DNA of 23,358 nt from a plasmid, in the sequence record NZ_AP018531.1. The stretch is one strand, 5' to 3'. Position numbers and translations under genes: made by a program. Of the stretch, positions 1-18,153 are shown one piece after another; positions within the stretch are counted from its first letter, which is position 1; the number at the start of each line of letters is the position of its first letter. Below the pieces are notes generated by a model. It saw only the letters and a program-made list of their open reading frames with translations. It made no database searches and was not told the DNA's origin.

Positions 1-84
1 AAATGGTGGTTCTATGCGATTGCCAGTGCAAATGTAATCGTTGCGTACTTTGCATTTCAGGCAATGAGCGTGACTCTGCCATAA
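1..84 (+). CDS. tctB: C-terminal 27 codons plus stop of a TctB-family small permease, partial at the window edge. It is likely the 3' end of the tctB that begins at 22984 if the molecule is circular.
   Basis: Frame 1 is open from base 1 to TAA at 82-84. It translates to KWWFYAIASANVIVAYFAFQAMSVTLP, a hydrophobic terminal helix. An AGGAGG RBS and the tctA start follow 16 nt downstream, which is operon-style spacing. Confidence 0.5.
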   Translation, partial: KWWFYAIASANVIVAYFAFQAMSVTLP

Positions 85-100
85 GAAGGAGGAAGCGCAT

Positions 101-1606: not shown

Positions 1607-1619
1607 AAAGGAGTTTCAG

Positions 1620-2897
1620 ATGAAGTATTATACTGAGCCGAGCCGGGAGATCCCGGTTGCGGCAGAAACGGAAGTCCTTGTTGTAGGTGGCGGCCCCGCA
1701 GGTTTCGGCGCCGCCCTGCACGCAGCACGCATGGGACGAAAAACGATGCTGATCGAGCAATACGGCGCGGTCGGCGGTGTGGCAACCACGGGCATTATGA
1801 GTCATTGGACCGGCAGACAGGACGGCGGCTGCTTTGAAGAGCTGCGCGCAAAGGCACGCGACTGTGAAGCGGAGCAGGTCATCAATCCGGAAAAACTGCG
1901 TATTTTGATGCTGGATATGCTGATGGAGGCCGGCGTTAATGTACAGCTGTACACAGGCTTCAGCGATGTCATTATGGATGGAAACCGCGTTGCGGGTGTA
2001 ATCACAGAGAGCAAATCCGGCCGGGAAGCGATCCTGAGCAAAATGGTGATCGATTCGACCGGCGACGGCGACGTGGCCGCACGTGCGGGCGTTCCGTTTG
2101 AAAAGGGACGTTCGACGGACGGCGGTATGCAGCCGATGACGATCATGTTCAAGGTTGCCGGCGTAGATATGGATCGCGCCATGTTCTTCTGGGGCTTTGA
2201 GGATACGGTCCAGCTGCCGGAAGGCGATCTGCAAACACTCGGTCGTCAGGAATTACCCTCTCCGGCAGGTCATATCCTGCTGTATCCTTCGTCGCTCCCC
2301 GGCGTTGTCACAGTCAACATGAGCAATATGACCGATGTGGACGGCACAAATGCAAGAGATCTGAATCGTGCTGAATACGTATGCAGAAAGCAGCTTCCCG
2401 AGATTATTGCATTTCTGCGCCGCCATGTGCCGGGATATGAAGGCTGTTATCTGATCGACAGTGCCGATGTGATCGGTGTGCGTGAAACCCGCCGGTTTGA
2501 GGCGAATTATCAGCTGAATGAGCAGGATATTGCGCAGGCTCGTACCTTTGAAGACTGGGTAGTTACCAAGTCGAATTTCTTCTTTGATCTGCACAATGTA
2601 GAAGGCGCCGGACTGGATGCCAATGGTGAATACAAGGCGTTCAAGCAGCCGAAGCCGTATACGATCCCGCTGCGCTGCTTTGTACCAAAGACGGTGGAGG
2701 GTATTCTGCTGAACGGACGCAATATTTCGGGTACGCATAAGGCGCACTCCAGCTATCGTGTTATGCCGATTGTAATGAATATGGGGCATGCTATGGGTAT
2801 TGTTGCCGCGATGTGTGTTGCACAGAACAAAAAGCCGTTGGAATTAGACATTCACGAAGTGCAGGATGAGCTGCGCAGAACGAATGTAGAACCGTAA
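1620..2897 (+). CDS. FAD-dependent oxidoreductase (Rossmann dinucleotide-binding N-terminus, PF12831-like), 425 aa
   Basis: N-terminal VLVVGGGPAGFGAALHAARMGRKTMLIEQYGAVGG dinucleotide-binding motif (GxGxxG ... E). RBS AAAGGAG sits 7 nt upstream. The gene abuts tctA by 13 nt, consistent with co-transcription. Confidence 0.8.
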   Translation: MKYYTEPSREIPVAAETEVLVVGGGPAGFGAALHAARMGRKTMLIEQYGAVGGVATTGIMSHWTGRQDGGCFEELRAKARDCEAEQVINPEKLRILMLDMLMEAGVNVQLYTGFSDVIMDGNRVAGVITESKSGREAILSKMVIDSTGDGDVAARAGVPFEKGRSTDGGMQPMTIMFKVAGVDMDRAMFFWGFEDTVQLPEGDLQTLGRQELPSPAGHILLYPSSLPGVVTVNMSNMTDVDGTNARDLNRAEYVCRKQLPEIIAFLRRHVPGYEGCYLIDSADVIGVRETRRFEANYQLNEQDIAQARTFEDWVVTKSNFFFDLHNVEGAGLDANGEYKAFKQPKPYTIPLRCFVPKTVEGILLNGRNISGTHKAHSSYRVMPIVMNMGHAMGIVAAMCVAQNKKPLELDIHEVQDELRRTNVEP

Positions 2898-2925
2898 ACT
2901 CAGGGAAGGAGATACAGTTAATATT

Positions 2926-3720
2926 ATGCTGAAACGAATGCCCCGCACGATTGCAGCAGAGCAGTCGCTGAAAAGCGGACTGTTCAAGCTGAGAGATATT
3001 GCCGCCTGTGCTTATGGCAATGGAAAGTGGATTCAATACCGGGATGCCGCAGGCACCTGTAAGCTTACGATGTCCATGGGAGAGATCGTAAAAAACGCCA
3101 GTGTGGAAGATGTTGAAGTGTCAAAGGCGCTTGCAGTGCTGTCGACAGGTACTCTGCCGGAGAACGGCGTAAAAACCATGGTGATTCTGCTGGTATCTCT
3201 GTTGGAAAAAGCGGAGAACCTCGGCTGCACGGAAGCGGATGTGAACGCAGTTTATGCGCTTCTGGAATATGCGGCAGAATATCTGCCAGCTATCGCGAAA
3301 GAGAATAACGGTGAGCTGCTCGGCAGCGTGCTGCCGTACATGACACTGATTAAGCCATTGAACAAACGGGCGCGTGAACTGGGCAATGAACGTGCAGCAG
3401 CAACGATGGAATATGCCCTGACAACGCTGCTCCTGACGTTTACCGAAGCCAACGGTGCAAATGGATACGGTGTATATGAACGCATGAAAGCACTGGCGCC
3501 CAATCAGTTTTTCAGCCTGAATCAGGTTGGCATTGAGAGGTCAATTTCCGTGGATAGTCCTTATACTGACATCTGGACGATGGGATTTGATCCCATCGAC
3601 GGAACGATTAAGGATTGTCGCGACATGGCATATCGCGATAAAGAGGAGGACGTACGAAACGTATTACTCGCGGTGAAGAATTCCCTGCAGGTTATTTGGA
3701 ATATTGTCGCAAGCCTGTGA
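2926..3720 (+). CDS. Hypothetical protein, 264 aa, no domain I can recognise. Last gene of the tct/oxidoreductase operon.
   Basis: The long ORF has coding-like composition. GGGAAGGAGA RBS lies upstream. A terminator follows at 3876-3920. Confidence 0.6.
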   Translation: MLKRMPRTIAAEQSLKSGLFKLRDIAACAYGNGKWIQYRDAAGTCKLTMSMGEIVKNASVEDVEVSKALAVLSTGTLPENGVKTMVILLVSLLEKAENLGCTEADVNAVYALLEYAAEYLPAIAKENNGELLGSVLPYMTLIKPLNKRARELGNERAAATMEYALTTLLLTFTEANGANGYGVYERMKALAPNQFFSLNQVGIERSISVDSPYTDIWTMGFDPIDGTIKDCRDMAYRDKEEDVRNVLLAVKNSLQVIWNIVASL

Positions 3721-3875
3721 TACGTGAATACACTGTCTGAGACAGCAGGTATGAAACCGCTCCAGCGATCAGCGTGTATTTACCCAATCTTCATGACCGG
3801 ATAAACAAATATCCGTCTCCTCCTGTTTGTTTTTCAGATCTCAGTTGTTGAAAATCATATCACCCTACTTTACCC

Positions 3876-3920
3876 AAAAGGAGCTTCCACGCACGGCGAT
3901 GGAGGCTCCTTTATTTTTCC
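3876..3920 (+). terminator. Rho-independent terminator after the tct/oxidoreductase operon
   Basis: Stem AAGGAGCTTCCA / TGGAGGCTCCTT (one mismatch), about 10-nt loop, then TTATTTTT. Confidence 0.5.
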
Positions 3921-3936
3921 GGCGCCCCGAACTGAC

Positions 3937-4045
3937 GCCGCCGCTTTCTCTCCCGGATGAGCGTAGACTTGCTGATGCCGGTCAGCTTAACAACCTGCGC
4001 GTAAGAATGGTCCTCAAGCAGAGCCATTGCATGGTTAAGCTGCAA
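3937..4045 (-). pseudogene. 3' remnant (about 36 codons, HTH tail) of a serine recombinase gene. It is a near-identical direct copy of the 3' end of the intact gene at 19289-19397.
   Basis: Visible alignment cgccgctttctctcccggatgagcgt(a/g)gacttgctgatgccggtcag... with only a few substitutions over about 108 bp. Similarity stops abruptly at 4046. No N-terminal catalytic region is present. Confidence 0.65.
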
Positions 4046-4190
4046 GATCGGCAGCGGTATCTTTTCCGCCATCATCATCGCCATGCTCGGCGCAGCTATT
4101 GTGCTGCCGCTCTATCGTCTGGATAGGATGTATCCGCCGCTCACAGCAGATTTGCAGGAGCAGGAGAAACACCGCCCTCTTTCGGATTGA
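4005..4190 (+). pseudogene. Stranded C-terminal tail of an unknown membrane protein (no start codon)
   Basis: The frame from 4005 to TGA at 4188-4190 encodes ...[47 protein letters not shown] with no upstream in-frame start. It is fused directly to the recombinase remnant. Confidence 0.3.
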
Positions 4191-4249
4191 ATCCATCCGG
4201 TTGCCGCAGCGCAAAACCGCTGACAGCCCTGCTTATGATTGGAGAACAA

Positions 4250-4306
4250 CCTAAAACAATGAAACGCCATCCGGCAGCGGATAACAAATCCGAGCCGGAT
4301 GGCGTT
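4250..4306 (-). terminator. Hairpin terminator downstream of the dehydrogenase remnant (minus-strand sense)
   Basis: Perfect 12-bp stem AACGCCATCCGG / CCGGATGGCGTT (4263-4274 and 4295-4306). A T-run follows on the minus strand (tcattgtttt). Confidence 0.4.
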
Positions 4307-4342
4307 ATTTGCTACTTTACAAAATCGATGGAGCCGTCATCG

Positions 4343-4561
4343 TTATTCCATCCACGGGTCGATGACGACCTTCATGCTTTCGCGGGTCATGCTGGCCTTC
4401 ACGGCCTGCTCTGCCTGCGGGAAGTGATGGCTGAACAGACGCTCCCACGGGAAGGTATCCTTGTGGCGCAGCATCCTTTCCATCACGGTTTTGTATTTAT
4501 TGTGCGTGTGATTCGTCATGCCGACAATACGCAGCTTGCACGGATTGAGATAAACGGCCAC
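4343..4561 (-). pseudogene. C-terminal fragment (about 70 aa) of a zinc-dependent alcohol dehydrogenase (MDR) family gene
   Basis: Translation ...LISHHFP..AVKASMTRESMKVVIDPWME matches the MDR C-terminus. The last about 30 codons are an inverted near-copy of 20310-20398. No N-terminal or Rossmann part is present. Confidence 0.55.
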
Positions 4562-4640
4562 GGTATACTCTCACTTTTATCGCCTGCATTGTCGGTAAAT
4601 CATCTGTATATCCTGTATTTCATAACAGAATCCAAGTGTA

Positions 4641-4676
4641 AAGTCACAAAGTTACAAATTCGTAACTTTGTGACTT
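4641..4676. repeat. Perfect 15-bp inverted repeat with 6-nt spacer (AAGTCACAAAGTTAC aaattc GTAACTTTGTGACTT)
   Basis: Read directly from the sequence. It lies 24 bp beyond the 3' end of the parA-parG operon, followed by TTTTTAACTTT. Confidence 0.7.
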
Positions 4677-4699
4677 TTTAACTTTAGTATTTCCGGCAG

Positions 4700-4939
4700 T
4701 TACGCAAAAAACTGATCGAGTGCCTGCCGTACCAGCTCGGACATATCGCAGTCGCGGTGGAAGGCTGCCGCCTTGAGCTGCTTATGCTGCTCCGGGCGCA
4801 GACGCACGGTCACCTGCACGGTGGAGGCTTTCTTCTTCTCCGCAGTCGGTGCGGCAGCTGTTTCCTGTGCCGGCTGCGGTTCCTCGTCCTTGCGGCCGAT
4901 CATATTCTTGAACATTTCCTCTGCACTGAGTCTTGCCAT
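4700..4939 (-). CDS. Small ribbon-helix-helix (CopG/ParG-like) partition partner or transcriptional repressor, 79 aa
   Basis: 79 aa, charged, with a C-terminal ELVRQALDQFF RHH-like motif. Start overlaps the parA stop. GGAGAAGGAGAGGG RBS. Typical small second gene of a type Ib par operon. Confidence 0.55.
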   Translation of the reverse strand: MARLSAEEMFKNMIGRKDEEPQPAQETAAAPTAEKKKASTVQVTVRLRPEQHKQLKAAAFHRDCDMSELVRQALDQFFA

Positions 4940-5754
4940 TACTGTTCCCTCTCCTTCTCCACAAACTCTTTGACGAAATTCAGACAGTCATTCACAAAAT
5001 TCCGGCTGGCCTCGGAAACGCGCTCGCCCTTGGTCTGTGCCTTGCTCTCAATGTAGTCAAACACGTTCTCCTGTACAGCCTGCGCTTCCTTGATGATCAC
5101 GTTGCTGCGGATGGTCGTTCGGTAAACGTCCGCGCCCATGTAGTCCGCGATTTTTTCGGTCAGCTCCTGAATGGTCCTGGTGACACGGGTGCGCTCGGTG
5201 CGCGTGAGCAATACGCCGTCGATCCTGAGCGCCGGATTGGTGTATTTCTTCACCGACTTGTAAGTATCATACAGCTGGGTGATGCCGGATGCCGCAAAGG
5301 TCTCCGCCATGGTCGGGATGAGCAGATAGTCGGCAGCCGTCAGCGCGTTCACGGTCAGCAGGCCGAGCGACGGCGGACAGTCGATGAGAATGTAATCGTA
5401 TGCCTCGGCTACGCCGGTCTGCTCGTCGCGCAGCTTCTCGCGGAGCGTCATCTCTTTGCCGACGTTGTGCAGCTCCTGCTCAATGCCCGCAAGGATGGTA
5501 TTGGCCGGAATGATATCGCAGCTGGGCGTGTGCTGGATGGCATCCCGCGCCGAGACCGTTCCCTTCATGACCTCGTACATGGTCGCGCTGTCCTGATTCT
5601 CGGCAGCTACCGACATCGACAGGTTGCCCTGTGGGTCGCAGTCGATCGTCAGCACGCTGAAGCCCTGCTTTTTCAGACCGGCCGCCAGAATGCCGGTCGT
5701 TGTGGTTTTTGCAACGCCGCCTTTCTGGTTGGCCAGTGCAAATATCGCTGACAT
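4939..5754 (-). CDS. parA: ParA/Soj-family partition ATPase (start at MSAIFALANQKGGVAKTT)
   Basis: Deviant Walker A KGGVAKTTT and an IDCDPQ motif. The internal ATG at 5754 has an AAAGAGGTGGAG RBS. The upstream ATG at 5772 has no RBS. Confidence 0.9.
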   Translation of the reverse strand: MSAIFALANQKGGVAKTTTTGILAAGLKKQGFSVLTIDCDPQGNLSMSVAAENQDSATMYEVMKGTVSARDAIQHTPSCDIIPANTILAGIEQELHNVGKEMTLREKLRDEQTGVAEAYDYILIDCPPSLGLLTVNALTAADYLLIPTMAETFAASGITQLYDTYKSVKKYTNPALRIDGVLLTRTERTRVTRTIQELTEKIADYMGADVYRTTIRSNVIIKEAQAVQENVFDYIESKAQTKGERVSEASRNFVNDCLNFVKEFVEKEREQ

Positions 5755-5778
5755 GTTCTCCACCTCTTTCAACTTTGT

Positions 5779-5860
5779 AAAGTTATAACTGTTTAACGTT
5801 ACTCTTATTATATACCTGTGCAGTTATAACGTCAAGACTGTGTAACTTTATAACGTTATT
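5779..5860. repeat. Iteron/parS-like cluster of GTTATAAC(G) palindromic repeats between rep and parA
   Basis: Copies at about 5782, 5823 and 5848, plus AACGTTA half-sites. The same 9-12-mer (GTTATAACGTTA) recurs at 8337-8381. Confidence 0.6.
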
Positions 5861-6145
5861 TCTTTCTATTGGTTCAGAGATTCATTCAAACCGTGTATTT
5901 TCTGCTCTTTTCTCTCCTTTTCTGTCAGGAAGATTGAGTAGTGAAGTTTCAATAAAGAAGTTTTAATAGGTAAGGATTTTAGTATATCAGCCTGTTTTGC
6001 ATCTGCTCAAAAAGCATCTTGTCTTTCAGCATACTGCCTGTAAACAGAGTACCCTGTAAAATCAGGGTAATGGTATGGCAGACAAAGAAAAATGACGGTC
6101 TTTCTGCCGTCATCGGTGTTTGGGGATGGAAATATGATTTTCCGA

Positions 6146-6185: not shown

Positions 6186-7376
6186 TTATTCGGTTTCCTG
6201 CGAATGGCGTTTTGCTTTTACGCGCTTGAGCCACTCCAGTTCCCAGTCGGCCAGCGGCTGCTCGGATGTGCCGGTGCTGACCGGCTCGGCCTGCGAAGGC
6301 TGCAGCAGCTTCTGATGGTAGGTATACAGGGAAGTCTGTAAGTATGCAACCGGGTTTTCAATGCGGCCGAAGTCGATCGTGACGCTGTTCAGAAAGCGTT
6401 CCATGCTTTCCTGAGAAATACGGCGGGAGACCTGCTCGCGGCTGTCCTGCGGGACCGCAGCGCCCTTGATGAACAGCTTGTCTGCGTACTTGATGTTGCA
6501 GACTGCCGTTACGACCGTTCCGGTCAGCTCGCTGCCGAACTGACGGCGGAGCGCGTCGGCGTTGATCTGCTGCTCGATCTGCCTGCGCAGCCTGCGGCGG
6601 ACGGCACGCGGCTTGTCCTTTTTGTTAACACACACGTTTTTACGGATGCGGGAAACCTGCGTTTTGATCTTCGCAAGGAAGCCGTCGATCGTGGCTACGG
6701 TGGAGACAGAGCCGTCAACGTGGTAGTTGGTCAGGTACGGCGTTTCCAGATCGGGTGTTTCGCAGAGCTTATATTCGTAGGTCCAGTGATTCTCCTGACC
6801 GGAAGGGAAACGGTGCTGCTTGAGCAGACCGGAAATCTTGAAGCGCTTCCAGAGCGTCGAGAAATGTTTCACTTTCTCCATGCAGAACGCGCGGATTCCC
6901 TCGGGACGGAGAACGAAGTCGGGAATCTTCATCAGATGGCTGACGAGGGCGAACAGTCCCTTGCTGGCAAGGGAAATGGTCTTGTCGCGCAGGACCGAGG
7001 TGGAAATGTTGGTGTAGTCGCGCTGTGCACCGGAAATGCAGGCAACATCACCGTTCGGGCGGTCAATGGACGGGGAATAGACGTAGTCCACCGGCTCGGA
7101 CGGGTGCTGCATCAGGTTATAGACATGACAGAACGCACCATTTTCCGACTGGGAGAAATAGTGCTGCAGGTATCCCTTTTGCTTGAGCTCCTTCCACGCC
7201 GCATTCAGCAGGTAGGCGCTGTCCGAGCAGGCATAGCCGAGACGGCGCTTGCTGAGCGCGAAATCCGGCAGGCCGACAAAAGACTTGATGACGGCAAACA
7301 GACCCTTGGCCTCGAGAGAAAGCGTTCTGTCGCGCAGAACTTCGTTATAGATTGTCGTGTAGCCGGCTGCGGACAT
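6186..7376 (-). CDS. Putative plasmid replication initiator with two tandem about 85-aa winged-helix-like domains plus a basic/coiled C-terminal region (396 aa)
   Basis: Internal duplication: Y-T-x-I-x-x-x-V-L-R-D-(R/K)-T-(L/I)-S-L-x-(A/S)-K-G-L-F-A-(V/L)... appears twice (residues about 7-80 and about 120-195). This resembles RepA_N or phage-replisome-organiser N-domains. RBS GGAAAGGAGGGAAAG. Sits immediately upstream of iterons and parA on the same strand. Confidence 0.55.
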   Translation of the reverse strand: MSAAGYTTIYNEVLRDRTLSLEAKGLFAVIKSFVGLPDFALSKRRLGYACSDSAYLLNAAWKELKQKGYLQHYFSQSENGAFCHVYNLMQHPSEPVDYVYSPSIDRPNGDVACISGAQRDYTNISTSVLRDKTISLASKGLFALVSHLMKIPDFVLRPEGIRAFCMEKVKHFSTLWKRFKISGLLKQHRFPSGQENHWTYEYKLCETPDLETPYLTNYHVDGSVSTVATIDGFLAKIKTQVSRIRKNVCVNKKDKPRAVRRRLRRQIEQQINADALRRQFGSELTGTVVTAVCNIKYADKLFIKGAAVPQDSREQVSRRISQESMERFLNSVTIDFGRIENPVAYLQTSLYTYHQKLLQPSQAEPVSTGTSEQPLADWELEWLKRVKAKRHSQETE

Positions 7377-7406
7377 TGCTTTCCCTCCTTTCCGATGGTC
7401 GATTTT

Positions 7407-7452
7407 TGCAGAAGAAACAAAAAATCGTCTGATGCTCTCACACCAGACGATT
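7407..7452 (-). terminator. Attenuator-like intrinsic terminator inside the rep leader, about 45 nt upstream of the rep start
   Basis: On the minus-strand RNA: stem AAUCGUCUG / CAGACGAUU (9 bp, 12-nt loop) followed by UUUUUUGUUUCUUCUG, then GGAAAGGAGGG and AUG. Confidence 0.45.
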
Positions 7453-7563
7453 GAAAAACCATGTCTAAATTCGTATCAAAAATCGAAGATTCGTAATGTT
7501 GCACAAGTAAAATGTGCCGTGTTAAGCAGAAAAATTGATTTTTGTCGAAAAACGCGCGTCTTA

Positions 7564-7592
7564 TTGACATAACCGCTTGTTGAATGTATAAT
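7564..7592 (+). promoter_or_regulatory. Consensus sigma-70/SigA promoter (TTGACA - 17 nt - TATAAT, with TG immediately upstream of the -10)
   Basis: TTGACA at 7564-7569 and TATAAT at 7587-7592, read directly from the sequence. Confidence 0.65.
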
Positions 7593-7598
7593 GATTAT

Positions 7599-7740
7599 AC
7601 AGTAAGCGGTATGCGCCATTTGGCGCGTTACTGGTCTCAGGTGAGTGAGATCTTACCGCCCGCTGGTGTTGGAAGCACCAAGTGGCGGATACCGTTTATA
7701 AAAGAGCTGATGCTTGCAGGCATTGGCTCTTTTGTTTTTC
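7599..7740 (+). ncRNA. Candidate about 140-nt small RNA (possible rep counter-transcript) from the consensus promoter to an intrinsic terminator
   Basis: No RBS-preceded ORF. Internal hairpins GCGCCAtttGGCGC and CCGCCcgctggtg...caccaagtGGCGG. 3' terminator stem AAAGAGCUGAUGC / GCAUUGGCUCUUU (13 bp including two G-U pairs) followed by UGUUUUUCC at 7701-7740. Confidence 0.35.
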
Positions 7741-7855
7741 CTGTAATTAAGAATACCATGGAAAATAAGGAATGTCAATCTTAATCAGGTGAAGTTGAAA
7801 AATACTCGGAAGAGTTGGTTTTTTTTTAGAATGAATCCGGGTTTTCCGGATATAC

Positions 7856-7884
7856 TTGCAATGCCGCCTGATATGCGGTATAAT
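7856..7884 (+). promoter_or_regulatory. Second near-consensus promoter (TTGCAA - 17 nt - TATAAT)
   Basis: TTGCAA at 7856-7861 and TATAAT at 7879-7884. A strong terminator lies about 40 nt downstream, so the transcript would be about 70 nt. Confidence 0.5.
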
Positions 7885-7923
7885 ATCAGTAAACGAATGA
7901 TGAGATTGCTCACTGAGCACACG

Positions 7924-7968
7924 AAAAGCCCCGGAGGTCACGACTCCGGGGCTTTTCTATTCTGTTTT
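7924..7968 (+). terminator. Strong rho-independent terminator
   Basis: Perfect 13-bp stem AAAAGCCCCGGAG / CTCCGGGGCTTTT, loop gtcacga, followed by TTTTCTATTCTGTTTT. Confidence 0.75.
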
Positions 7969-8325
7969 GGAGCAGGTGGCTTAGACCTGAGGCTGGCTAC
8001 CAGTTACATCTTGCCGTCCAGCCATTTGCAAATGCAGTATGCTGCTACGCTTGCCAGAACGGAGATTAAAAACGATGAGATAACGCTCACTAAGTCCCCA
8101 CTTTTGCTAACTGTATAGGGGAGCCTGTACCGTATAACATGGAGGTCGGATTGCAGCAAGGAAAGCCGGATTTTGAACTTCTCAGACTAAAAATTACTGC
8201 CTGGGATATATTCGCGGCGCTTGATCCATGCCGCGCAAACGGTCTCTTTATTATCTGCGGCTGCTCACAGCCGACCGGCATTTCCTCGATCAGCCGCCTT
8301 GATGGGTCGATATGCAGGACTTTTT

Positions 8326-8382
8326 TGTTATGTAAAGTTATAACGTTAAAAAGCTATGACGTTATAACGCTATAACGTTAGA
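8326..8382. repeat. Second cluster of GTTATAACG iteron/parS-like repeats
   Basis: aaGTTATAACGTTAaaaag ... gacGTTATAACGctATAACGTTAg. Shares the 12-mer with the cluster at 5779-5860. Confidence 0.6.
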
Positions 8383-8416
8383 TTGCGATGTATTTCTATT
8401 TTGGCATATATTATAC

Positions 8417-8452
8417 TTGACGATTCTAAATGTATTCTTATACATTGAATTA
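8417..8452 (+). promoter_or_regulatory. Possible promoter with overlapping GT-N-AC inverted repeat (AATGTATtcttATACATT), candidate GntR operator upstream of the disrupted gntR
   Basis: TTGACG -35-like hexamer, then the 7-bp-arm inverted repeat. FadR/GntR-type operators commonly have GT...AC symmetry. Confidence 0.3.
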
Positions 8453-8469
8453 AGCAAAGAAGTAGTAGA

Positions 8470-8614
8470 ATGGCTTTACAGGCACTCAAGAAAAGGGAGT
8501 CTTTTTCGGATAAAGCCTATCATATGCTGCGCGAAGCGATTCTGACCGGAGAACTTAAGCCGGGCGAACAGCTTACCGAAGAAGCGCTTTCCGCACAGCT
8601 TGGCATCAGCCGCA
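8470..8614 (+). pseudogene. N-terminal about 48 codons (HTH) of a GntR-family regulator, truncated by an IS fragment
   Basis: AYHMLREAILTGELKPGEQLTEEALSAQLGISRT is a canonical GntR wHTH. The reading frame degenerates right after ISRT (about 8614). No effector domain follows. Confidence 0.6.
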
Positions 8615-8946
8615 CACAGTCTATCGAGCATTTCCCATTTGCGCTGTTCTTCACTTTTTCGATGGCCCTGTCCCGCGACAAACGAGATGTTTTCTTTGCT
8701 TGCCTTCAGGTATTCCTGCAGATCCTTCAGCTTGTGCAGTCCGGTGGCTTTTTCCACCCTCTCCTGTACTGCCTGCAACTGCTTTTCCCCTTCCAGAAGC
8801 CACATAAAGTCTATTCGATACCGGCACGATTCTTCCGGCTTCCGGCTGGAATAGATCCCACATTGATATCCGTACACCATTACCTTGAACAGCACTCGTG
8901 GATCGACCTTCGATTTCCGTCCTTTCGGCGAATAGGCCCGATACAT
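8615..8946 (-). mobile_element. Truncated IS transposase N-terminal fragment (DUF772-type, IS1182/IS5-like)
   Basis: MYRAYSPKGRKSKVDPRVLFKVMVYGYQCGIYSSRKPEESCRYRIDFMWLL matches the N-domain pattern GRP..dP..mfK.l.ygY..gIySSRK.E......i.FmWL. There is no DDE catalytic region. The ORF only continues as antisense of gntR. Confidence 0.5.
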
Positions 8947-9059
8947 AAATCTGTTCTGTGCCGCAGAAAATAGGACTGCACCGATTGCGCGGTCAAAGCT
9001 GATATGCTACAATGATATTACTAAAAAACGTGCACGGCACAAAAAATAGGAGTGATCGC

Positions 9060-10313
9060 ATGGAGATCCAGCGAGAGGCATATCTGAACCAACTGATCGA
9101 GCGCAGGGACAACGGCATGATCAAGATTGTCACCGGCATACGGCGCTGCGGAAAATCCTATCTGCTGTTCACCATATTCAAGCGGTATCTGCTTGAAAGC
9201 GGCGTTCCGGAGGATCATATTATCGAGATCGCTTTGGACGGCATCGAGAACGAGGAGCTGCGCGACCCCAAGGTATGCTTCCGCTATATTACGGATGCCA
9301 TGCGCGGCGACGGGCCGTATTATCTTCTGCTCGATGAAGTGCAGTTCATGCCCCGGTTTGAGGAAGTTCTGAACAGCTTGCTGCGCATGAGCAATATCGA
9401 CGTCTATGTGACCGGCAGCAACTCCAAGTTCCTTTCCAGCGACATCGTGACCGAATTTCGCGGCCGCGGTGACGAGATACGCATTCATCCGCTGTCGTTT
9501 GCAGAGTTCTATTCGGTCTGGGACGGCGACTTTGACGATGCCTGGGACGAATATATGCTCTACGGCGGTCTGCCGCAGATCGTAAATTTTCAGAACGAAC
9601 GCCAGAAGGCAGACTATCTGAAAAACATTTTTGCTAACGTCTATCTGAAGGATGTAATCGAGCGCAACCGCATTCAGAACGATGCGGAGATCAACATTCT
9701 GGTTGACGTTCTGGCATCTGCGATCGGCGCGCCGACCAACCCGTCTAAAATCGCGAACACCTTTGCAAGCGAGCGCCAGATGAGCTACACCAACAAGACC
9801 ATTTCACAGCACATTGATTTTCTGGCAGATGCTTTTCTGATCGAGAAGGCGCAGCGCTATGACATCAAAGGGCGCAAGTATATCGGTGCCAATCTCAAAT
9901 ATTACTTCACCGACCTCGGTTTGCGCAACGCCCGGCTGAATTTCCGGCAGCAAGAGCCGACTCATATCATGGAGAACATCGTATATAATGAGCTGTGCAT
10001 TCGCGGTTATCATGTCGATGTGGGCATCGTTGAGGCGTTCGGCAAGGACAGCAGCGGCAAGCGCCTGCGCAAGCAGCTCGAAGTCGATTTCGTCGTCAAT
10101 CAGGCGAGTCAGCGATATTATATCCAGGTCGCCTACGATCTCACCTCGGAGGAGAAGCAGGCGCAGGAATTCAACTCGCTCCGCCATATCCCGGACTCGT
10201 TCAAGAAAATCGTCATCGTAAACGGCGTCCGCAAACCGTGGCGCAACGATGAAGGCTTCGTTATCATGGGCATGAAGTATTTTCTCCTAAACGCAGACAG
10301 TCTGGAGTTTTAA
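9060..10313 (+). CDS. AAA-family ATPase (AAA_14-like N-domain, DUF4143-like C-domain), 417 aa from MEIQREAYL
   Basis: Walker A GIRRCGKSY, Walker B LLLDEVQ. The C-terminal half has the DUF4143 architecture. AGGAG RBS sits 7 nt upstream of the ATG at 9060. The earlier ATG at 9012 lacks an RBS. Confidence 0.8.
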   Translation: MEIQREAYLNQLIERRDNGMIKIVTGIRRCGKSYLLFTIFKRYLLESGVPEDHIIEIALDGIENEELRDPKVCFRYITDAMRGDGPYYLLLDEVQFMPRFEEVLNSLLRMSNIDVYVTGSNSKFLSSDIVTEFRGRGDEIRIHPLSFAEFYSVWDGDFDDAWDEYMLYGGLPQIVNFQNERQKADYLKNIFANVYLKDVIERNRIQNDAEINILVDVLASAIGAPTNPSKIANTFASERQMSYTNKTISQHIDFLADAFLIEKAQRYDIKGRKYIGANLKYYFTDLGLRNARLNFRQQEPTHIMENIVYNELCIRGYHVDVGIVEAFGKDSSGKRLRKQLEVDFVVNQASQRYYIQVAYDLTSEEKQAQEFNSLRHIPDSFKKIVIVNGVRKPWRNDEGFVIMGMKYFLLNADSLEF

Positions 10314-10668
10314 GGCAATACCGCATAATTGAAAATGAGCGATGCTGCCAAGGCGGACAAGCAAGCCGGACTGTCGTGTTTCTATCTGCGGAAGCTTACC
10401 AAAATGGTAGAGGCGCCGCTGTTTTTTATGTGTATTTTACGTTTTTATGTTCCGGTCGATCTGTTCGTATCGCTCTGCGGCAACGATCCTGCTGTGGTAA
10501 AGGTCAGCGGCGACACCATCAGATTCCGAATCCGCTGACCGTCCATAACTCCCTTGCAGAGCTTGCAAAGGCAGTCGGATTTGACATCAAAGCGCCGACC
10601 GTGCCCGCAGAGCAGGGAATCAGTGAGACAGAGGTCGCGGCGGTAGTCAGCAGCGCCTTATAAAAGAT

Positions 10669-10760
10669 TGAAGAGTGGTGATTTTCTCCACTCTTTCTCT
10701 TTTGCGGGTATACAGAAAAAGAGTGGAAAGCGCTTCACTCTCCACTCTTAAATCTTCACT
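10669..10760. terminator. Pair of hairpins in the convergent gap between the ATPase and iolI (bidirectional terminators)
   Basis: AGAGTGGtgattttctCCACTCT followed by TTCTCTTTTG. Also AAAAAGAGTGgaaagcgcttCACTCTccactctt. Confidence 0.4.
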
Positions 10761-10768
10761 CTGTGAAA

Positions 10769-11641
10769 TCAGTCCGCCCAGTACTTTGCAACATGTGCCT
10801 TGGTAACCTCAGCGGCCTTCTTGATATTCTCCTCGTTGGACAGCTTGTAGTAGTCCGGACGGAACACCTCCATGGTGCAAACGTCGCCTTCAAAGCCGAT
10901 TTTCTTGAGGGTATCTGCGTAACGCTTGTGGTCGAGGCAGTCGCCCGGCTCGCCCGGCCACAGACGCTTCTCGTCGTTGTTGTAAGCAGCGCCGCACGGC
11001 ATATTCTCCATGCCGTTCAGGTGCCATACGAAAATCTTCTTGCCGTCAGCCTTCTCGAGAGCAGCCCACTCGGAAGCCATTGCATGGAAGTGGTACTGGT
11101 CGAGGGTGATGCCGACGAGCGGATGATCTACCTCAGTAACGATGTCGTAAGCGTACTCGAAGCGGTTGATGGACATGGTCGGTGCGCCGCAGAACTCGAT
11201 GGACAGCTTGATGCCGTGCGGCTCAACCTTCTTTACCATCTCCTTGAGAACAGCAACAGCATCAGCCTTGATCTCGTCAACGGTAGCCGGAACGGTCAGA
11301 TCCATGGACGGAACGACAACGATCATCTTGCAGCCCAGCTTGTTGCAGTCTGCGATGATCTGGTCGAGCTTTGCCATAACGGCGTCCTTTTCCTCCTGGG
11401 TCTGCTTCATGTTGAAGAAGATCAGAGCGTTGTAGGACAGCATCTTCAGGTGATGCTTCGGATCAGCAAACCATGCGCCGAGATCGTCGATGGTGTACTT
11501 GCCGGCAGCGATCTCGCGGTCGAGGCACTCGGACTGGATGTCGATGTAGTCAAAGCCGTACTTCTCGCACAGGTCGAGGTCTTCAAGTACGGAGTGGTTT
11601 TCGCAGAAACGGTTGCAGCCTTCGTTAAAACCGATTTTCAT
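10769..11641 (-). CDS. iolI: Inosose isomerase IolI (2-keto-myo-inositol isomerase; xylose-isomerase-like TIM barrel)
   Basis: Blocks align along the whole length with B. subtilis IolI from memory: MKIGFNE / MKLCFNE, LDLCEKYGFDYIDI / LELCEKHGYDYIEI, DQYHFHAMAS / DSFHFHAMGS, LEKADGKKIFVWH / LKQADGKKIFIYH, EVFRPDYYKLSNEE / ELFRPEYYKLTAEE. RBS AAAGGAG. Confidence 0.8.
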   Translation of the reverse strand: MKIGFNEGCNRFCENHSVLEDLDLCEKYGFDYIDIQSECLDREIAAGKYTIDDLGAWFADPKHHLKMLSYNALIFFNMKQTQEEKDAVMAKLDQIIADCNKLGCKMIVVVPSMDLTVPATVDEIKADAVAVLKEMVKKVEPHGIKLSIEFCGAPTMSINRFEYAYDIVTEVDHPLVGITLDQYHFHAMASEWAALEKADGKKIFVWHLNGMENMPCGAAYNNDEKRLWPGEPGDCLDHKRYADTLKKIGFEGDVCTMEVFRPDYYKLSNEENIKKAAEVTKAHVAKYWAD

Positions 11642-11779
11642 AGCAGTAACTCCTTTTAACGTATCAATTTCGCGTTGTAAAACGCGGTATAGTGGTTAAG
11701 GTGATATGCAAGGGCAGTAAAGCAGGAAGCTCTGCCACCCTTGCGAGTGAGTAGCAATGAATAGAAAATATGAGGTGGA

Positions 11780-12796
11780 TTACTTCTTGTAGAAGTCCGG
11801 GGTGCCGCCGGTAACAACCTTCTCCGGCACACCGGAGGTCTGGGACTTAACCAGAGCGTCAGCGGTGATGGAAGCAACGTAGCCGTCCCAAGCAGAGGAG
11901 CCGCCGGTCTCACCCTTGAGTGCGTGGTCAACCCAGTCCTGAATCTCTACATCGTAAGAATCGATGAAGCGCAGGATCCAGTTGTCCTCGATCTTGGTGG
12001 AAACCTCGTTAGCGTAGCGAACGGTCGGGAAGGACGGGCACGGCAGGTTTACAACGCCGTTCTCACATACAACCTCGCAGTTGATGTCGTAGCCGAAGCC
12101 GCAGTTTACGTTAACCTCGAGCATGTTGATGATGCCGCCCTTGGTCTTCATGATCATGATCTGCGGGTCCTTCAGCGCGTTCTTAACCTTGCTGTTGGTC
12201 TTCGGCATGATGCACTGAACCTCGTCCCACTCGTCGTTTACCAGCCACGGCAGAACGTCGATCTCGTGGATTGCGGTATCGGTAACAGCCATTGCGGTGG
12301 TGTAGTCATCGGCAACGCCGTCTGCACGGTGGGTGCACTTGATCACCATCGGGGCACCGAACTTGCCGGAGTCGATCAGCTCCTTGACCTGACGGTAGCC
12401 GCGGTCGTAACGGCGCATGAAGCCAACCTGTACGAGGTGCTTGCCGCCTGCCATCTCGGCCTCAACGATCTCCTTGCCGTCAGCAGCGGTGTTAGCCAGC
12501 GGCTTCTCGGAGAATACCGGCTTGCCGGCCTTGATCGCTGCCAGAACCGGACCCTTGTGGAACTGACCCGGGGTGGTAACTACAACAGCGTTTACGTCCG
12601 GATCGTTGATTGCTTCGTTGAAATCGGTGTAAACCTTGGTGCCGGCGCCGGCGATCTCAGCGCCCTTCTTTGCACCTTCTTCAAATACGTCGCATACAGC
12701 AACGATGCGTGCATTGCGGATGCGGTTCTGGATACGCTCGATGTGCTCACGGCCGATCATGCCGCAGCCGATCAGTGCAATGTTCAGATTTTCCAT
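11780..12796 (-). CDS. iolG: myo-Inositol 2-dehydrogenase IolG (Gfo/Idh/MocA family); start at MENLNIALIG
   Basis: Long collinear match to B. subtilis IolG from memory: LVQVGFMRRYDRGY, DDYTTAMAVTDTAIHEIDVLPWLVNDEW, LKDPQIMIMKTKGG, VNCGFGYDINCEVV, SYDVEIQDWVD, SAWDGYVASITADALVKSQTSG, PDFY. The ATG at 12796 has AAAGGA 9 nt upstream. The ATG at 12808 has none. Confidence 0.85.
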   Translation of the reverse strand: MENLNIALIGCGMIGREHIERIQNRIRNARIVAVCDVFEEGAKKGAEIAGAGTKVYTDFNEAINDPDVNAVVVTTPGQFHKGPVLAAIKAGKPVFSEKPLANTAADGKEIVEAEMAGGKHLVQVGFMRRYDRGYRQVKELIDSGKFGAPMVIKCTHRADGVADDYTTAMAVTDTAIHEIDVLPWLVNDEWDEVQCIMPKTNSKVKNALKDPQIMIMKTKGGIINMLEVNVNCGFGYDINCEVVCENGVVNLPCPSFPTVRYANEVSTKIEDNWILRFIDSYDVEIQDWVDHALKGETGGSSAWDGYVASITADALVKSQTSGVPEKVVTGGTPDFYKK

Positions 12797-12936
12797 GATA
12801 AAGCTCATCCTTTCAAAATATGCCGCTGTACGGCAGAGTTCAAGTCTAATGGATTATGTGCGAGTATTTCGGGAGCCGCAGCATTGCTGCGACCCCTGAA
12901 AACTCGGAAAGAGAAGAGAGATTGTGTGTGTCTGTT

Positions 12937-13920
12937 TTACGCGCGCTTTGCGTTCTTGCGCATGTCGAGTACAACCGAACCGACAATGATAACGCCCTTG
13001 ACAATGTTGGTCATGTTATCGTCTACCTTCAGCATAACCAGACCGTTATTGATAACGCCAAGGATCAGGATACCTGCCAGAACACCGGATACGCGGCAGA
13101 TACCGCCGGTGTGGGAGGTGCCGCCTACGGTAGCCGCAGCGATAGCGTCTAGCTCGTAGTTCAGGCCGGAGTTGGCCGGGTCAGCCGAACCTGCACGGCC
13201 TGCCAGCAGCATACCTGCAACAGCCGCACAAACCGAGCACCATACATAAACCATGATGAGGTTCTTTTCTACATTGATGCCAGCAACGCGGGCAGCCTGA
13301 TCGTTGCCGCCGATGGCATACACGTTTTTGCCGAAGCGGGTCTGCGTCAGCAGGAAGGCCGAGATCGCAAACATAACGAAGAATACCAGAATGATGACCG
13401 GAACCGAGCCGATTTTAGCAGAGCCAAGGAAACGGAACTCCGAGGACAGGGTGGAAACCGGGCGGCTGGTGTACATTTTTGCGCTTGCGCGGCAGATCAG
13501 CTGTGCGCCGAGCGTTGCGATGAAGGGCGGAATCTTGGTGTACGCGATGATCGCACCGTAAATAGCGCCGATGCCTGCGCCGATTGCCAGACCGATCAGA
13601 ATAACCAGCGGTGCGGGCAGGGTGCCCAGACCGGGGAATACTGCGTTGGCATAATCTGCCGGCTGAACCAGAGATGCCGTGATGCAGGCAACCAGGCCGG
13701 CCGATGCGCCGATCGTCAGGTCGATACCCTTGGACAGGATCGCGAACATAACGCCGAAGGCCAGAATACCCTTGACGGCCTCACCGGAGAGCAGCGTCAG
13801 CAGGTTGTTTACGGTGAAGAAACTGGGCTGTGCAACACCCATGATAATGACCATAGCGATCAGTACCAGCCAGATCGAGTTCTGCGACAGGAATTTTTTC
13901 TTGTCAAACGTCTTTTGCAT
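12937..13920 (-). CDS. ABC sugar transporter permease (CUT2/RbsC-like, BPD_transp_2)
   Basis: 327 aa, about 9-10 hydrophobic segments, typical monosaccharide ABC permease pattern. 18 nt downstream of the ATPase gene. Confidence 0.85.
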   Translation of the reverse strand: MQKTFDKKKFLSQNSIWLVLIAMVIIMGVAQPSFFTVNNLLTLLSGEAVKGILAFGVMFAILSKGIDLTIGASAGLVACITASLVQPADYANAVFPGLGTLPAPLVILIGLAIGAGIGAIYGAIIAYTKIPPFIATLGAQLICRASAKMYTSRPVSTLSSEFRFLGSAKIGSVPVIILVFFVMFAISAFLLTQTRFGKNVYAIGGNDQAARVAGINVEKNLIMVYVWCSVCAAVAGMLLAGRAGSADPANSGLNYELDAIAAATVGGTSHTGGICRVSGVLAGILILGVINNGLVMLKVDDNMTNIVKGVIIVGSVVLDMRKNAKRA

Positions 13921-13938
13921 ACCATTTACCCTTCTTTC

Positions 13939-15450: not shown

Positions 15451-15484
15451 TGCTTTTCACCCCAATATCTCTGCGTTTTTTTAG

Positions 15485-15510
15485 GAAGGGGACATGTGGA
15501 AATGTCCCCT
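15485..15510. other. Intra-operon stem-loop between the binding-protein and ATPase genes
   Basis: Perfect 10-bp stem AAGGGGACAT / ATGTCCCCTT, loop gtggaa. There is no U-tract on the coding (minus) strand, so it is probably an mRNA stabiliser or partial attenuator rather than a terminator. Confidence 0.4.
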
Positions 15511-15532
15511 TCGCAACATTCAGTGTCGGAAT

Positions 15533-16537: not shown

Positions 16538-16715
16538 TTGCTTTTACCTCATCTTTCTCAACTTTTTTCTTAGCCGTACACGTTCACATTTTTGAAAAAT
16601 GCGATTTACGCTTGCCTTGATTTAGTTTTACACTCTTTTTCGATGTGCGTCAACCGGATTTTTGAATTTTCACCAAATCACACAGACGAATCTTGCGAAA
16701 ACTGGTGATTCTGTC

Positions 16716-16730
16716 TGCACAAAATTGTGA
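16716..16730. promoter_or_regulatory. Operator-like near-palindrome TGCACAAAATTGTGA upstream of the ABC transporter operon
   Basis: One centre mismatch from perfect symmetry. Nearly identical to the site at 16974-16988. Confidence 0.35.
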
Positions 16731-16973: not shown

Positions 16974-16988
16974 TGCACAATATTGTGA
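16974..16988. promoter_or_regulatory. Operator-like palindrome TGCACAATATTGTGA (12-bp core CACAATATTGTG is perfect) upstream of the LacI-family gene
   Basis: Read directly. About 100 bp upstream of the lacI-family start, in the 550-bp divergent intergenic region. Confidence 0.4.
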
Positions 16989-18135: not shown

Positions 18136-18153
18136 TCCGGGTCAGGAGGTATT

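What the first reader, a model, noticed from the sequence alone, without database searches (positions are those of the whole stretch)
7377..7790. rep leader resembles antisense-RNA-controlled attenuation systems: consensus divergent promoter, about 140-nt terminated RNA, and an intrinsic terminator just before the rep RBS
A textbook TTGACA-17-TATAAT promoter (7564-7592) fires away from rep. It produces an RNA of about 140 nt with no credible ORF, ending at a 13-bp-stem terminator (7701-7740). Between it and rep, the rep-sense strand carries a perfect 9-bp hairpin plus UUUUUUGUUUCUUCUG (7407-7452), about 45 nt before the rep RBS. That is a premature terminator in the leader. A plausible rep-sense promoter (TTGACA at 7774-7779, extended -10 TGgTATTCT at 7750-7758) would make the rep leader pass through the complement of the small RNA. 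This gives the countertranscript-driven attenuation layout known from pIP501/pAMbeta1 RNAIII and pT181. The placement of the rep promoter is my inference and is the weak link.
Basis: partly seen in the sequence, partly recalled or inferred. Interest (0 to 1): 0.6.

Follow-up and report, generated by a model that had tools for sequence, protein, structure and literature searches.

The report
Antisense RNA controlling plasmid rep gene
Upstream of a plasmid replication gene from a human-gut Clostridia bacterium lies a conserved, highly structured small antisense RNA gene and a conserved terminator hairpin, the classic layout for plasmid copy-number control, here in a plasmid family and an RNA that have not been described.

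Summary
The + strand promoter TTGACA-17-TATAAT (7564-7592) is invariant in 62 of 62 distinct related leaders. The RNA it makes (about 7599-7742) has no Rfam match. It folds as a closing stem, three hairpins and a terminator, supported by 7 compensatory pairs. Its variation sits almost entirely in hairpin loops.

All 62 leaders keep TTGAC(A/T)-17-TGnTATTCT, although the spacer and upstream DNA differ in more than 10 versions. The leader hairpin plus U-run (7452..7407) is a real RNA structure, with 5 of 13 pairs compensated.

The gene is probably a replication initiator: it matches PHROG initiator families, sits next to parA, and belongs to Agathobaculum-type gut plasmids.

I could not show the switch. 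Equilibrium folding forms the terminator whether or not the target is blocked, and no pre-emptor stands out above chance. This is therefore a cis-antisense rep control cassette, most likely attenuation of the pT181/pIP501 type. It is not homologous to those systems, and the last mechanistic step is inferred. Verdict: a new member of a known kind, of moderate interest.

The parts
7750..7778 (-). rep-sense promoter (P_rep): -35 TTGACA at 7778..7773, 17-nt spacer, extended -10 TGgTATTCT at 7758..7750. The predicted start is about 7744-7742.
   Evidence: Found by the consensus scan. TTGAC(A/T)-17-TGnTATTCT is kept in all 62 distinct leaders, while the spacer and upstream DNA occur in more than 10 unrelated versions. 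Sequence conservation of the cassette begins at this promoter.
7564..7592 (+). Antisense-RNA promoter (P_sRNA): TTGACA-17-TATAAT. It is convergent with P_rep.
   Evidence: 12/12 consensus match. Both hexamers and the spacing are invariant in 62/62 distinct leaders.
7599..7742 (+). Antisense small RNA of about 144 nt, fully complementary to the 5' end of the rep leader. P1 pairs 7602-7612 with 7689-7699. H1 pairs 7613-7617 with 7622-7626. H2 pairs 7633-7639 with 7646-7652 (loop 7640-7645). H3 pairs 7656-7660 with 7684-7688 and 7663-7668 with 7676-7682 (loop 7669-7675). The terminator pairs 7700-7714 with 7719-7733, followed by a U-run.
   Evidence: z = -7.3. The four-way-junction fold is 98% paired, with 5-7 compensatory pairs and 0/500 shuffles reaching that number. 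The window's MFE long hairpin fits worse. A covariance model gives one hit in the window, 170.6 bits. There is no Rfam family and no tRNA.
7640..7645 (+). Hypervariable H2 loop (GGTGAG in the window). Candidate kissing-loop and specificity determinant.
   Evidence: 16 different loop sequences occur among 64 cassettes that share identical H2 stems. Column entropy peaks here.
7669..7675 (+). Hypervariable H3 loop (TTGGAAG in the window). Second candidate kissing loop.
   Evidence: 9 apex variants among 64 cassettes, giving 28 H2/H3 combinations. Entropy peak.
7453..7563 (-). Leader spacer between the antisense-RNA gene and the attenuator. It is conserved but partly dispensable.
   Evidence: About 77 nt are absent in the L003b/L090 and L091 cassettes, which keep both the sRNA and the attenuator.
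7407..7452 (-). Leader attenuator: a 13-bp hairpin (7452..7423, loop GAGA) followed by UUUUUUGUUUCUUCUG. It lies about 17 nt upstream of the rep SD.
   Evidence: Found by the terminator scan. 5 of 13 pairs show compensatory double changes and 99% of cells are paired across 8 variants. G.U/U.G pairs on the rep-sense strand mark it as an RNA structure of the rep transcript.
7377..7392 (-). rep ribosome-binding region: SD AGGAGG at 7389..7384, ATG at 7376..7374.
   Evidence: Read from the sequence. Conserved in all loci, including L070, which lacks the rest of the leader.
6186..7376 (-). rep: 396-aa putative replication initiator from an uncharacterised family.
   Evidence: No Pfam or NCBIfam family. 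Residues 4-93 match PHROG replication-initiation families 4707 (E = 1e-11) and 4221, and DnaD-like family 186. There are distant tblastn hits to Clostridium plasmid proteins. A ParA gene lies next to it at 5772..4939. 267 homologues are known, and the closest named genome is Agathobaculum hominis.

Best explanation
This is the replication-control cassette of a plasmid from human-gut Clostridia (Agathobaculum type).

A weak but conserved promoter (7778..7750) transcribes rep through a leader of about 365 nt. A consensus promoter on the opposite strand (7564-7592) makes an RNA of about 144 nt that is perfectly complementary to the first 140 nt or so of that leader. This RNA folds into a closing stem that holds three hairpins, followed by its own terminator.

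Its amount should follow plasmid copy number. It probably contacts the nascent rep leader first through the H2 and H3 loops, in kissing interactions. Pairing then lowers Rep synthesis, most probably by making RNA polymerase stop at the conserved intrinsic terminator (7452..7407) that sits just before the rep ribosome-binding site. That is countertranscript-driven attenuation, as in pT181 and pIP501. Convergent transcription from the strong antisense promoter may also interfere with the weak rep promoter.

The loops vary freely because any change alters sense and antisense together. New loop sequences would create new incompatibility specificities.

Shown here: the promoters, the RNA fold, the terminator hairpin, and their conservation and co-occurrence.

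Inferred: that both RNAs are made, that they pair, and that pairing is coupled to termination.
For: - Both promoters: the consensus scan finds them. P_sRNA is invariant in 62/62 leaders. P_rep keeps its hexamers and 17-nt spacing in 62/62 despite more than 10 unrelated spacer and upstream sequences.
- Conservation: the leader is 90-93% identical in nucleotides where Rep is only 78-80% identical in amino acids.
- sRNA fold: 98% of cells are paired, 7 pairs (10 cells) show double compensatory changes, and 0/500 shuffles reach this. Slid controls give about 40-48% paired.
- Strand assignment: six conserved G.U pairs would be C.A mismatches on the other strand. The fold is therefore selected in the + strand RNA, and its terminator works in one direction only.
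- Loop variation: variation is confined to loops. There are 16 H2 loops, 9 H3 apexes and 28 combinations on invariant stems.
- Attenuator: 5 of 13 pairs are compensated, and a U-run follows in every variant.
- No other rep promoter: no other promoter-like site lies on the rep strand between the sRNA gene and rep, and only about 17 nt separate the U-run from the SD. rep mRNA must therefore cross this terminator.
- Co-occurrence: every cassette that has the sRNA has the attenuator, including the second, divergent cassette in L003/L090 and the one in L091.
- Precedents: pT181 stem-loop IV, and pIP501 RNAIII (136 nt, 329-nt leader) (PMC5703833; PMC4981023). Transcriptional interference combined with attenuation is documented for RnaG (PMC2879508).
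Against: - There are no expression data. Both transcripts are predictions.
- Equilibrium folding forms the terminator hairpin with probability about 1 whether the antisense target is free or blocked. This holds in the window, L002 and L061. No pre-emptor is evident.
- The best duplex partners of the terminator's 5' arm do lie inside the target region (-13 to -18 kcal/mol). By my own estimate these are at chance level, and local hairpins sequester those partners.
- One apparent covariation, between P1' and the terminator arm (window versus L003b), is contradicted by L091.
- The target and the terminator are 45-146 nt apart and the distance varies. This is looser than in pT181.
- Most sequences are closely related, so the covariation rests on a few divergent lineages (L003, L003b, L061, L085, L088, L091). 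Alignment A6 was also fitted to the model.
Confidence: 0.62

Rival explanations
1. The small RNA is a cis-antisense repressor of rep but does not act by switching the terminator. The hairpin would be a constitutive, leaky terminator or a stabiliser that sets a low basal level. The antisense RNA would act through transcriptional interference between the convergent promoters, RNase III cleavage and decay of the duplexed leader, or a long-range effect on translation as in pSK41.
For: The terminator is predicted to form with or without the target blocked. The target-to-terminator distance is variable and long. A strong consensus antisense promoter faces a weaker rep promoter, as in RnaG/icsA, where interference was measured (PMC2879508). 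pSK41 RNAI acts about 100 nt from the site it affects and does so at the level of translation (PMC5703833).
Against: Blocking the target produces no consistent change in predicted SD accessibility. A strong terminator conserved with compensatory changes immediately before the RBS in every sRNA-bearing cassette is what an attenuation system needs. Kinetic, co-transcriptional switches are often invisible to equilibrium folding.
Confidence: 0.25
2. The + strand RNA has a different primary job, and its overlap with the rep leader is incidental. It could be a trans-acting regulator, a replication primer or origin-activating transcript, or an antitoxin.
For: The fold is unusually elaborate for a countertranscript: a four-way junction with an 11-bp closing stem. 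A type I toxin-antitoxin-like module lies next door. The plasmid's origin has not been located.
Against: The RNA always travels with rep and its attenuator, even when duplicated on small two-rep contigs and when upstream DNA is swapped. It terminates 140 nt from its start, right where the rep transcript begins. The neighbouring toxin module has its own convergent small RNA with a shared terminator. Loop hypervariability with invariant stems is the signature of sense/antisense kissing pairs.
Confidence: 0.08
3. The inverted repeats are DNA-level signals, such as an origin, a single-strand origin or protein-binding palindromes, and not RNA structures.
For: The region lies next to rep and is rich in palindromes.
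Against: An invariant canonical promoter precedes the structures and a hairpin plus U-run ends them. Conserved G.U pairs and G.U-to-A-U or G-C changes are strand-specific. The Rep N-terminus resembles winged-helix or DnaD-like initiators, not rolling-circle HUH proteins. Stems covary while loops drift, which is not expected of protein-binding sites.
Confidence: 0.04

Closest known systems
pIP501 / pAMbeta1 / pSM19035 (Inc18) RNAIII-repR attenuation
   Same: An antisense RNA of about 140 nt (RNAIII is 136 nt) is made from a promoter convergent with the rep promoter. It is complementary to a leader longer than 300 nt (329 nt in pIP501). It has several stem-loops, two of which are candidates for simultaneous loop-loop contact. 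An intrinsic terminator lies in the leader ahead of rep. The replicon is theta-type with a partition gene nearby (PMC4981023).
   Different: No CopR-like repressor gene sits upstream of the rep promoter; a type I toxin-antitoxin-like module is there instead. Rep has no PriCT_1/RepR similarity. The RNA shows no sequence or Rfam similarity. Its hairpins are enclosed by an 11-bp closing stem. No antisense-dependent alternative fold was found.
pT181 family RNAI/RNAII-repC countertranscript-driven attenuator
   Same: A terminator-like stem-loop lies immediately upstream of the rep start codon. The countertranscript target is further upstream in the untranslated leader. Related plasmids have diverged in specificity (PMC5703833).
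   Different: pT181 is a rolling-circle plasmid with a Rep_trans protein. Its mechanism depends on a defined pre-emptor that pairs with the 5' arm of stem-loop IV. Here no pre-emptor stands out, and the terminator lies 45-146 nt beyond the region of overlap.
pSK41 (RepA_N) RNAI
   Same: The antisense RNA binds the rep leader about 100 nt upstream of the site where the effect is exerted, so it acts at a distance (PMC5703833).
   Different: pSK41 sequesters the RBS and does not terminate transcription. Here the downstream element is a classical terminator with a U-run, and predicted SD accessibility does not respond to target blocking. RNAI is smaller (83 nt, two stem-loops).
RnaG / icsA of Shigella flexneri
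   Same: A strong antisense promoter is convergent with a weaker sense promoter. Transcriptional interference and antisense-induced termination operate together, and the antisense RNA has three hairpins (PMC2879508).
   Different: That system controls a virulence gene, not a replicon, and in a Gram-negative host. Its terminator forms only after pairing, whereas here it is predicted to be stable on its own.

Membership tests
Countertranscript-driven transcription attenuation of rep (mechanistic class: pT181, pIP501, pAMbeta1) | A small RNA gene on the strand opposite the rep leader, with its own promoter and terminator and complementary to the leader | tested here: met
   The promoter is 12/12 consensus and invariant in 62/62 leaders. 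A terminator hairpin plus U-run is present. The rep promoter upstream of it is conserved, so the overlap is about 140 nt.
Countertranscript-driven transcription attenuation of rep (mechanistic class: pT181, pIP501, pAMbeta1) | An intrinsic terminator in the leader, upstream of the rep RBS | tested here: met
   A 13-bp hairpin followed by UUUUUUGUUU lies about 17 nt before the SD. 5 of 13 pairs are compensated across lineages.
Countertranscript-driven transcription attenuation of rep (mechanistic class: pT181, pIP501, pAMbeta1) | A mutually exclusive pre-emptor (antiterminator) that involves the antisense target and the 5' arm of the terminator | tested here: inconclusive
   Equilibrium folds show the terminator formed in both states. 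Truncated folds and duplex scans give candidate partners in H2' and H3', but at chance level and without consistent covariation.
Countertranscript-driven transcription attenuation of rep (mechanistic class: pT181, pIP501, pAMbeta1) | The antisense RNA increases premature termination and lowers copy number | not testable with these tools
   This needs in vitro transcription, Northern blots or RACE, and copy-number assays.
Inc18 replicons (pIP501/pAMbeta1/pSM19035) | A RepR/RepE-type initiator (PriCT_1) and a CopR/CopF repressor gene upstream of the rep promoter | tested here: not met
   Rep has no Pfam or NCBIfam match. The DNA upstream of P_rep carries a toxin-antitoxin-like module and no small HTH gene.
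Inc18 replicons (pIP501/pAMbeta1/pSM19035) | Sequence or structure homology of the antisense RNA to described plasmid countertranscripts | tested here: not met
   No Rfam family reaches its gathering score. The permissive scan of 7300-8500 returns no countertranscript family at E <= 10.
pT181 family (rolling-circle, Rep_trans) | A Rep_trans initiator | tested here: not met
   There is no Rep_trans hit. The N-terminus matches winged-helix or DnaD-like initiator PHROGs.
Plasmid replication initiator (the gene labelled rep) | Similarity to known initiators, and a plasmid context | tested here: met
   The protein matches PHROG 4707 (E = 1e-11), 4221 (4e-8) and DnaD-like 186. ParA is adjacent. There are distant hits to Clostridium plasmid proteins. 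The support is moderate: origin binding is untested, and the AlphaFold model was too poor to use (pLDDT 51.8).

The most novel reading that the evidence does not exclude
The antisense RNA may work without a pre-emptor, at a variable distance of 45-146 nt from a terminator that is intrinsically competent. One possibility is that the structured 5' leader (the mirror image of the four-way junction) renders RNA polymerase terminator-resistant, like a put/EAR-type processive antitermination element. Antisense pairing would then dismantle that element. This would be a new coupling between a countertranscript and termination. In addition, the 28 or more H2/H3 loop combinations on invariant stems would form a natural library of orthogonal incompatibility specificities in an abundant family of human-gut plasmids.
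Probability: 0.1. Interest if true: 0.65.

Novelty: new member of a known kind. Interest (0 to 1): 0.4.

Why it matters
Antisense-RNA copy-number control is textbook biology, but the known examples come from a handful of staphylococcal, streptococcal and enterobacterial plasmids. This cassette belongs to an uncharacterised Rep family that is very common in human-gut metagenomes, with protein clusters of thousands of members. Its RNA is in no RNA-family database.

It gives a ready-made annotation, as a covariance model, for the replication-control region of these plasmids. It also offers a natural series of loop variants for studying how incompatibility groups arise, and compact parts for building vectors with tunable copy number in hard-to-engineer gut Clostridia.

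The absence of an obvious pre-emptor makes it a useful test of whether all such attenuators work as pT181 does.

Tried and rejected
1. The window's minimum-free-energy fold, a single long hairpin. Rejected because its inner helices are only 59-91% paired in relatives and use the hypervariable segments as stems. The four-way junction fits better.
2. Known RNA families and tRNA or tmRNA. Nothing was found.
3. A coding reading of ORF 7584-7784. Rejected because loop indels and insertions break the frame.
4. An equilibrium antiterminator. Folding with the target free or blocked gives the same terminator probability.
5. Truncated nascent-transcript folds and duplex scans for a pre-emptor. The candidates are H2' UCUCAC with GUGAGA, and H3' CGGGCGGU with the arm. 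By my own estimate both are at chance level. The second survives in all lineages only because the arm changes are pyrimidine transitions opposite G.
6. P1'-to-arm pairing that appeared to covary between the window and L003b. It is contradicted by L091 (sequences).
7. A translational switch. SD accessibility does not change.
8. A brute-force scan of the whole leader for covarying column pairs. It was swamped by lineage-correlated changes and was unusable.
9. The distant Rep relative L004. It has a different upstream architecture and was uninformative.
10. A viral-contig scan. It returned nothing.
11. PDB profile search. Only noise.
12. An AlphaFold model of Rep. Mean pLDDT was 51.8, too poor for a fold search.
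13. A search for another rep promoter inside the spacer. None is conserved.

Full report
**What is in the sequence.** The 396-aa ORF at 7376..6186 (minus strand) is preceded by a non-coding stretch of about 400 nt. The consensus scans find four elements there.

- A 12/12 promoter on the + strand (TTGACA-17-TATAAT, 7564-7592), pointing away from the ORF.
- A + strand terminator at 7698-7735, followed by a T-run.
- A 10/12 promoter with a TG extension on the minus strand (TTGACA 7778..7773, TGgTATTCT 7758..7750).
- A minus-strand hairpin at 7452..7423, followed by TTTTTTGTTTCT. It ends about 17 nt before the SD AGGAGG (7389..7384).

The predicted 144-nt + strand RNA (7599-7742) folds at -71.5 kcal/mol, z = -7.3. 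It matches no Rfam family, even at E <= 10, and is not a tRNA or tmRNA.

**Is the gene a rep?** Pfam and NCBIfam give nothing. Residues 4-93 match PHROG families annotated as replication initiation proteins (4707 at E = 1e-11; 4221 at 4e-8) and DnaD-like loaders. Distant tblastn hits fall on Clostridium plasmid genes, and a ParA ATPase gene follows at 5772..4939. The protein has 267 relatives in the large protein database, mostly from human-gut metagenomes, and some clusters hold thousands of members. The closest named genome is Agathobaculum hominis. A PDB profile search returned noise. An AlphaFold model was too poor to use, with mean pLDDT 51.8. I accept the rep label with moderate confidence.

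**Comparative data.** I collected 4 genome loci, 80 metagenome loci and 7 further loci found through divergent Rep proteins. The leader is 90-93% identical in nucleotides in loci whose Rep is only 78-80% identical in amino acids. The non-coding cassette is therefore under at least as much constraint as the protein. Conservation starts exactly at the minus-strand promoter.

All 62 distinct leaders carry TTGAC(A/T), exactly 17 nt, then TGnTATTCT. The 17-nt spacer and the DNA upstream occur in more than ten unrelated versions. That is a phylogenetic footprint of a sigma-A promoter. No other promoter-like site exists on that strand between it and rep, and none is conserved in the short-spacer variants. 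The rep transcript therefore very probably starts at about 7743 and reads through the full complement of the small RNA.

**The small RNA.** Its promoter hexamers and spacing are invariant in 62/62 leaders. The window's MFE structure, one long hairpin, does not survive comparison: its inner helices are 59-91% paired and use hypervariable bases. A four-way junction does survive.

- P1: 7602-7612 with 7689-7699.
- H1: 7613-7617 with 7622-7626.
- H2: 7633-7639 with 7646-7652.
- H3: 7656-7660 with 7684-7688, and 7663-7668 with 7676-7682.
- Terminator: 7700-7714 with 7719-7733.

On a MAFFT alignment of 30 sequences this fold is 98.1% paired with 5 compensated pairs. No shuffle out of 500 reaches that number of compensated pairs, and slid controls are 38-49% paired. 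A covariance model built on it finds one hit in the window (170.6 bits) and one per rep cassette elsewhere. With the divergent cassettes added there are 7 compensated pairs in 10 cells, including two in P1. That alignment was fitted to the model.

Six conserved G.U pairs would be C.A mismatches on the other strand. The fold is therefore selected in the + strand RNA. Three of these G.U pairs sit in its terminator, which would make the terminator work in one direction only and spare the rep transcript.

Variation is concentrated in four places: the H2 loop, the H3 loop, the terminator loop, and insertions of 27-100 nt at the H1 apex. Among 64 cassettes with identical H2 stems there are 16 H2 loops, 9 H3 apexes and 28 combinations. 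This pattern is typical of kissing loops in sense/antisense control RNAs. A change there alters both partners at once and can create a new specificity. YUNR motifs occur in many H2 target loops and in most H3 antisense loops. I regard this as weak evidence.

**The attenuator.** Eight variants of the leader hairpin exist. Five of 13 pairs show double compensatory changes, and 99% of cells are paired against 30-51% in slid controls. G.U and U.G pairs appear on the rep-sense strand, and five or more U residues follow in every variant. Only about 17 nt separate the U-run from the SD, and no promoter fits there. rep mRNA must therefore pass through this terminator. Every cassette with the small RNA has the attenuator. 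This includes a second, divergent cassette on the 4.3-4.4 kb contigs L003/L090 and the cassette in L091. The one locus without the small RNA (L070) also lacks the attenuator, and its rep follows directly behind another ORF. That locus may be a rearrangement or an assembly chimera.

**How it probably works, and what I could not show.** The anatomy matches antisense control of rep by transcription attenuation, as described for pT181 and pIP501. In pT181, stem-loop IV sits just upstream of repC and a pre-emptor pairs with its 5' arm when the countertranscript is absent (PMC5703833). In pIP501, RNAIII is 136 nt, the leader is 329 nt, and the promoters are convergent (PMC4981023).

The defining switch is missing from my analysis.

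- Equilibrium partition-function folding forms the terminator with probability about 1 whether the target is free or constrained.
- Folding of transcripts truncated before the 3' arm, and duplex scans, place the best partners of the 5' arm inside the target region: the H3' 3' strand and H2', at -13 to -18 kcal/mol. By my own estimate complementarities of this size are expected by chance, and these partners are themselves locked in local hairpins.
- One apparent covariation, between P1' and the arm, fails in L091.
- Predicted SD accessibility does not respond to target blocking either.
- The target-to-terminator spacing varies from about 45 to 146 nt, because about 77 nt of spacer are absent in two lineages.

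A kinetic, co-transcriptional switch remains possible, and equilibrium folding would not see it. Alternatively the RNA may act by transcriptional interference, as measured for RnaG/icsA (PMC2879508), by duplex-directed decay, or at a distance as pSK41 RNAI does. I put about 0.85 on "cis-antisense repressor of rep" and about 0.6 on attenuation as the main effector.

**Comparison and novelty.** The cassette works like the Inc18 and pT181 systems but is not a member of either.

- Rep has no PriCT_1 or Rep_trans similarity.
- No CopR-type gene lies upstream.
- The RNA has no relatives in Rfam.
- Its hairpins are enclosed by an 11-bp closing stem.

A literature search for Agathobaculum plasmids returned nothing relevant. 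I class it as a new member of a known kind. Its interest is moderate. It lies mainly in the abundance of this plasmid family in the human gut, the natural library of loop variants, and the lack of an obvious pre-emptor.

Noticed in passing
window 7856-8160: This looks like a par/Fst-type type I toxin-antitoxin module directly upstream of the rep promoter. A + strand promoter (TTGCAA-17-TATAAT, 7856-7884) would make an RNA of about 70 nt that ends at a perfect 14-bp bidirectional terminator (7923-7957). A convergent minus-strand transcript shares that terminator and encodes a small hydrophobic peptide ending ...VSVISSFLISVLASVAAYCICKWLDGKM (stop at 8004). There is a sub-threshold Rfam SpF66 hit at 7913-8131 (-), 37.6 bits, E = 4e-7, and a weak NCBIfam type I toxin hit. 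The 7852-7960 piece is about 75% identical to unannotated DNA on a C. perfringens plasmid and a Waltera intestinalis plasmid.
   Followed up: partly
window 5775-5870 and 8333-8380: Two clusters of TTATAACGTT-type repeats, direct and inverted, flank the rep/toxin module. One lies just upstream of parA (5772..4939) and the other upstream of a GntR-family regulator gene (8470-8973). They are candidates for a partition centromere or an operator.
   Followed up: no
L003 1-4330 and L090: Contigs of 4.3-4.4 kb from independent samples carry two convergent rep genes: 402 aa at L003 611-1819 on the + strand, and 406 aa at 3906..2686 on the minus strand. Each is 63-64% identical to the window Rep. Each has its own promoter, small RNA and attenuator. 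The second cassette has a spacer shortened by about 77 nt and a fully re-paired attenuator stem.
   Followed up: partly
L070 2300-2520: One locus has an 80%-identical rep joined directly to an upstream 372-aa ORF, about 25 nt before the SD. It has no rep promoter, small RNA or attenuator. It may be a rearranged replicon or an assembly chimera.
   Followed up: partly
window 7622 (H1 apex); L015, L029, L033, L037, L043, L061, L003, L085, L091: Insertions of 27-30 nt, and about 100 nt in L091, sit at the apex of hairpin H1 of the small RNA in several lineages. They extend that hairpin and leave the rest of the fold intact.
   Followed up: partly
window 7407-7418 versus 7381-7390 (minus strand): The pyrimidine run after the attenuator (UUUCUUCU) can pair with the SD region (GGAGGGAA) in the consensus fold of the leader. 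This is a possible anti-SD, but the pairing is U/G-rich and generic. Blocking the antisense target did not change SD accessibility.
   Followed up: partly
window 7572-7610: ACCGCTT (in the spacer of the small-RNA promoter) and AAGCGGT (the 5' strand of P1) form an inverted repeat around the palindrome TGTATAATGATTATACA that contains the -10 box. In the rep leader this gives an alternative partner for the P1' strand. Its significance is unknown.
   Followed up: no
window 1-4700 and 8470-23358: The surrounding genes are metabolic or accessory: a TctA transporter, an FAD-dependent oxidoreductase, a GntR regulator and an AAA_14/DUF4143 ATPase. Related contigs reach 95 kb. The replicon is therefore a large plasmid or chromid, not a small cryptic plasmid.
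   Followed up: no
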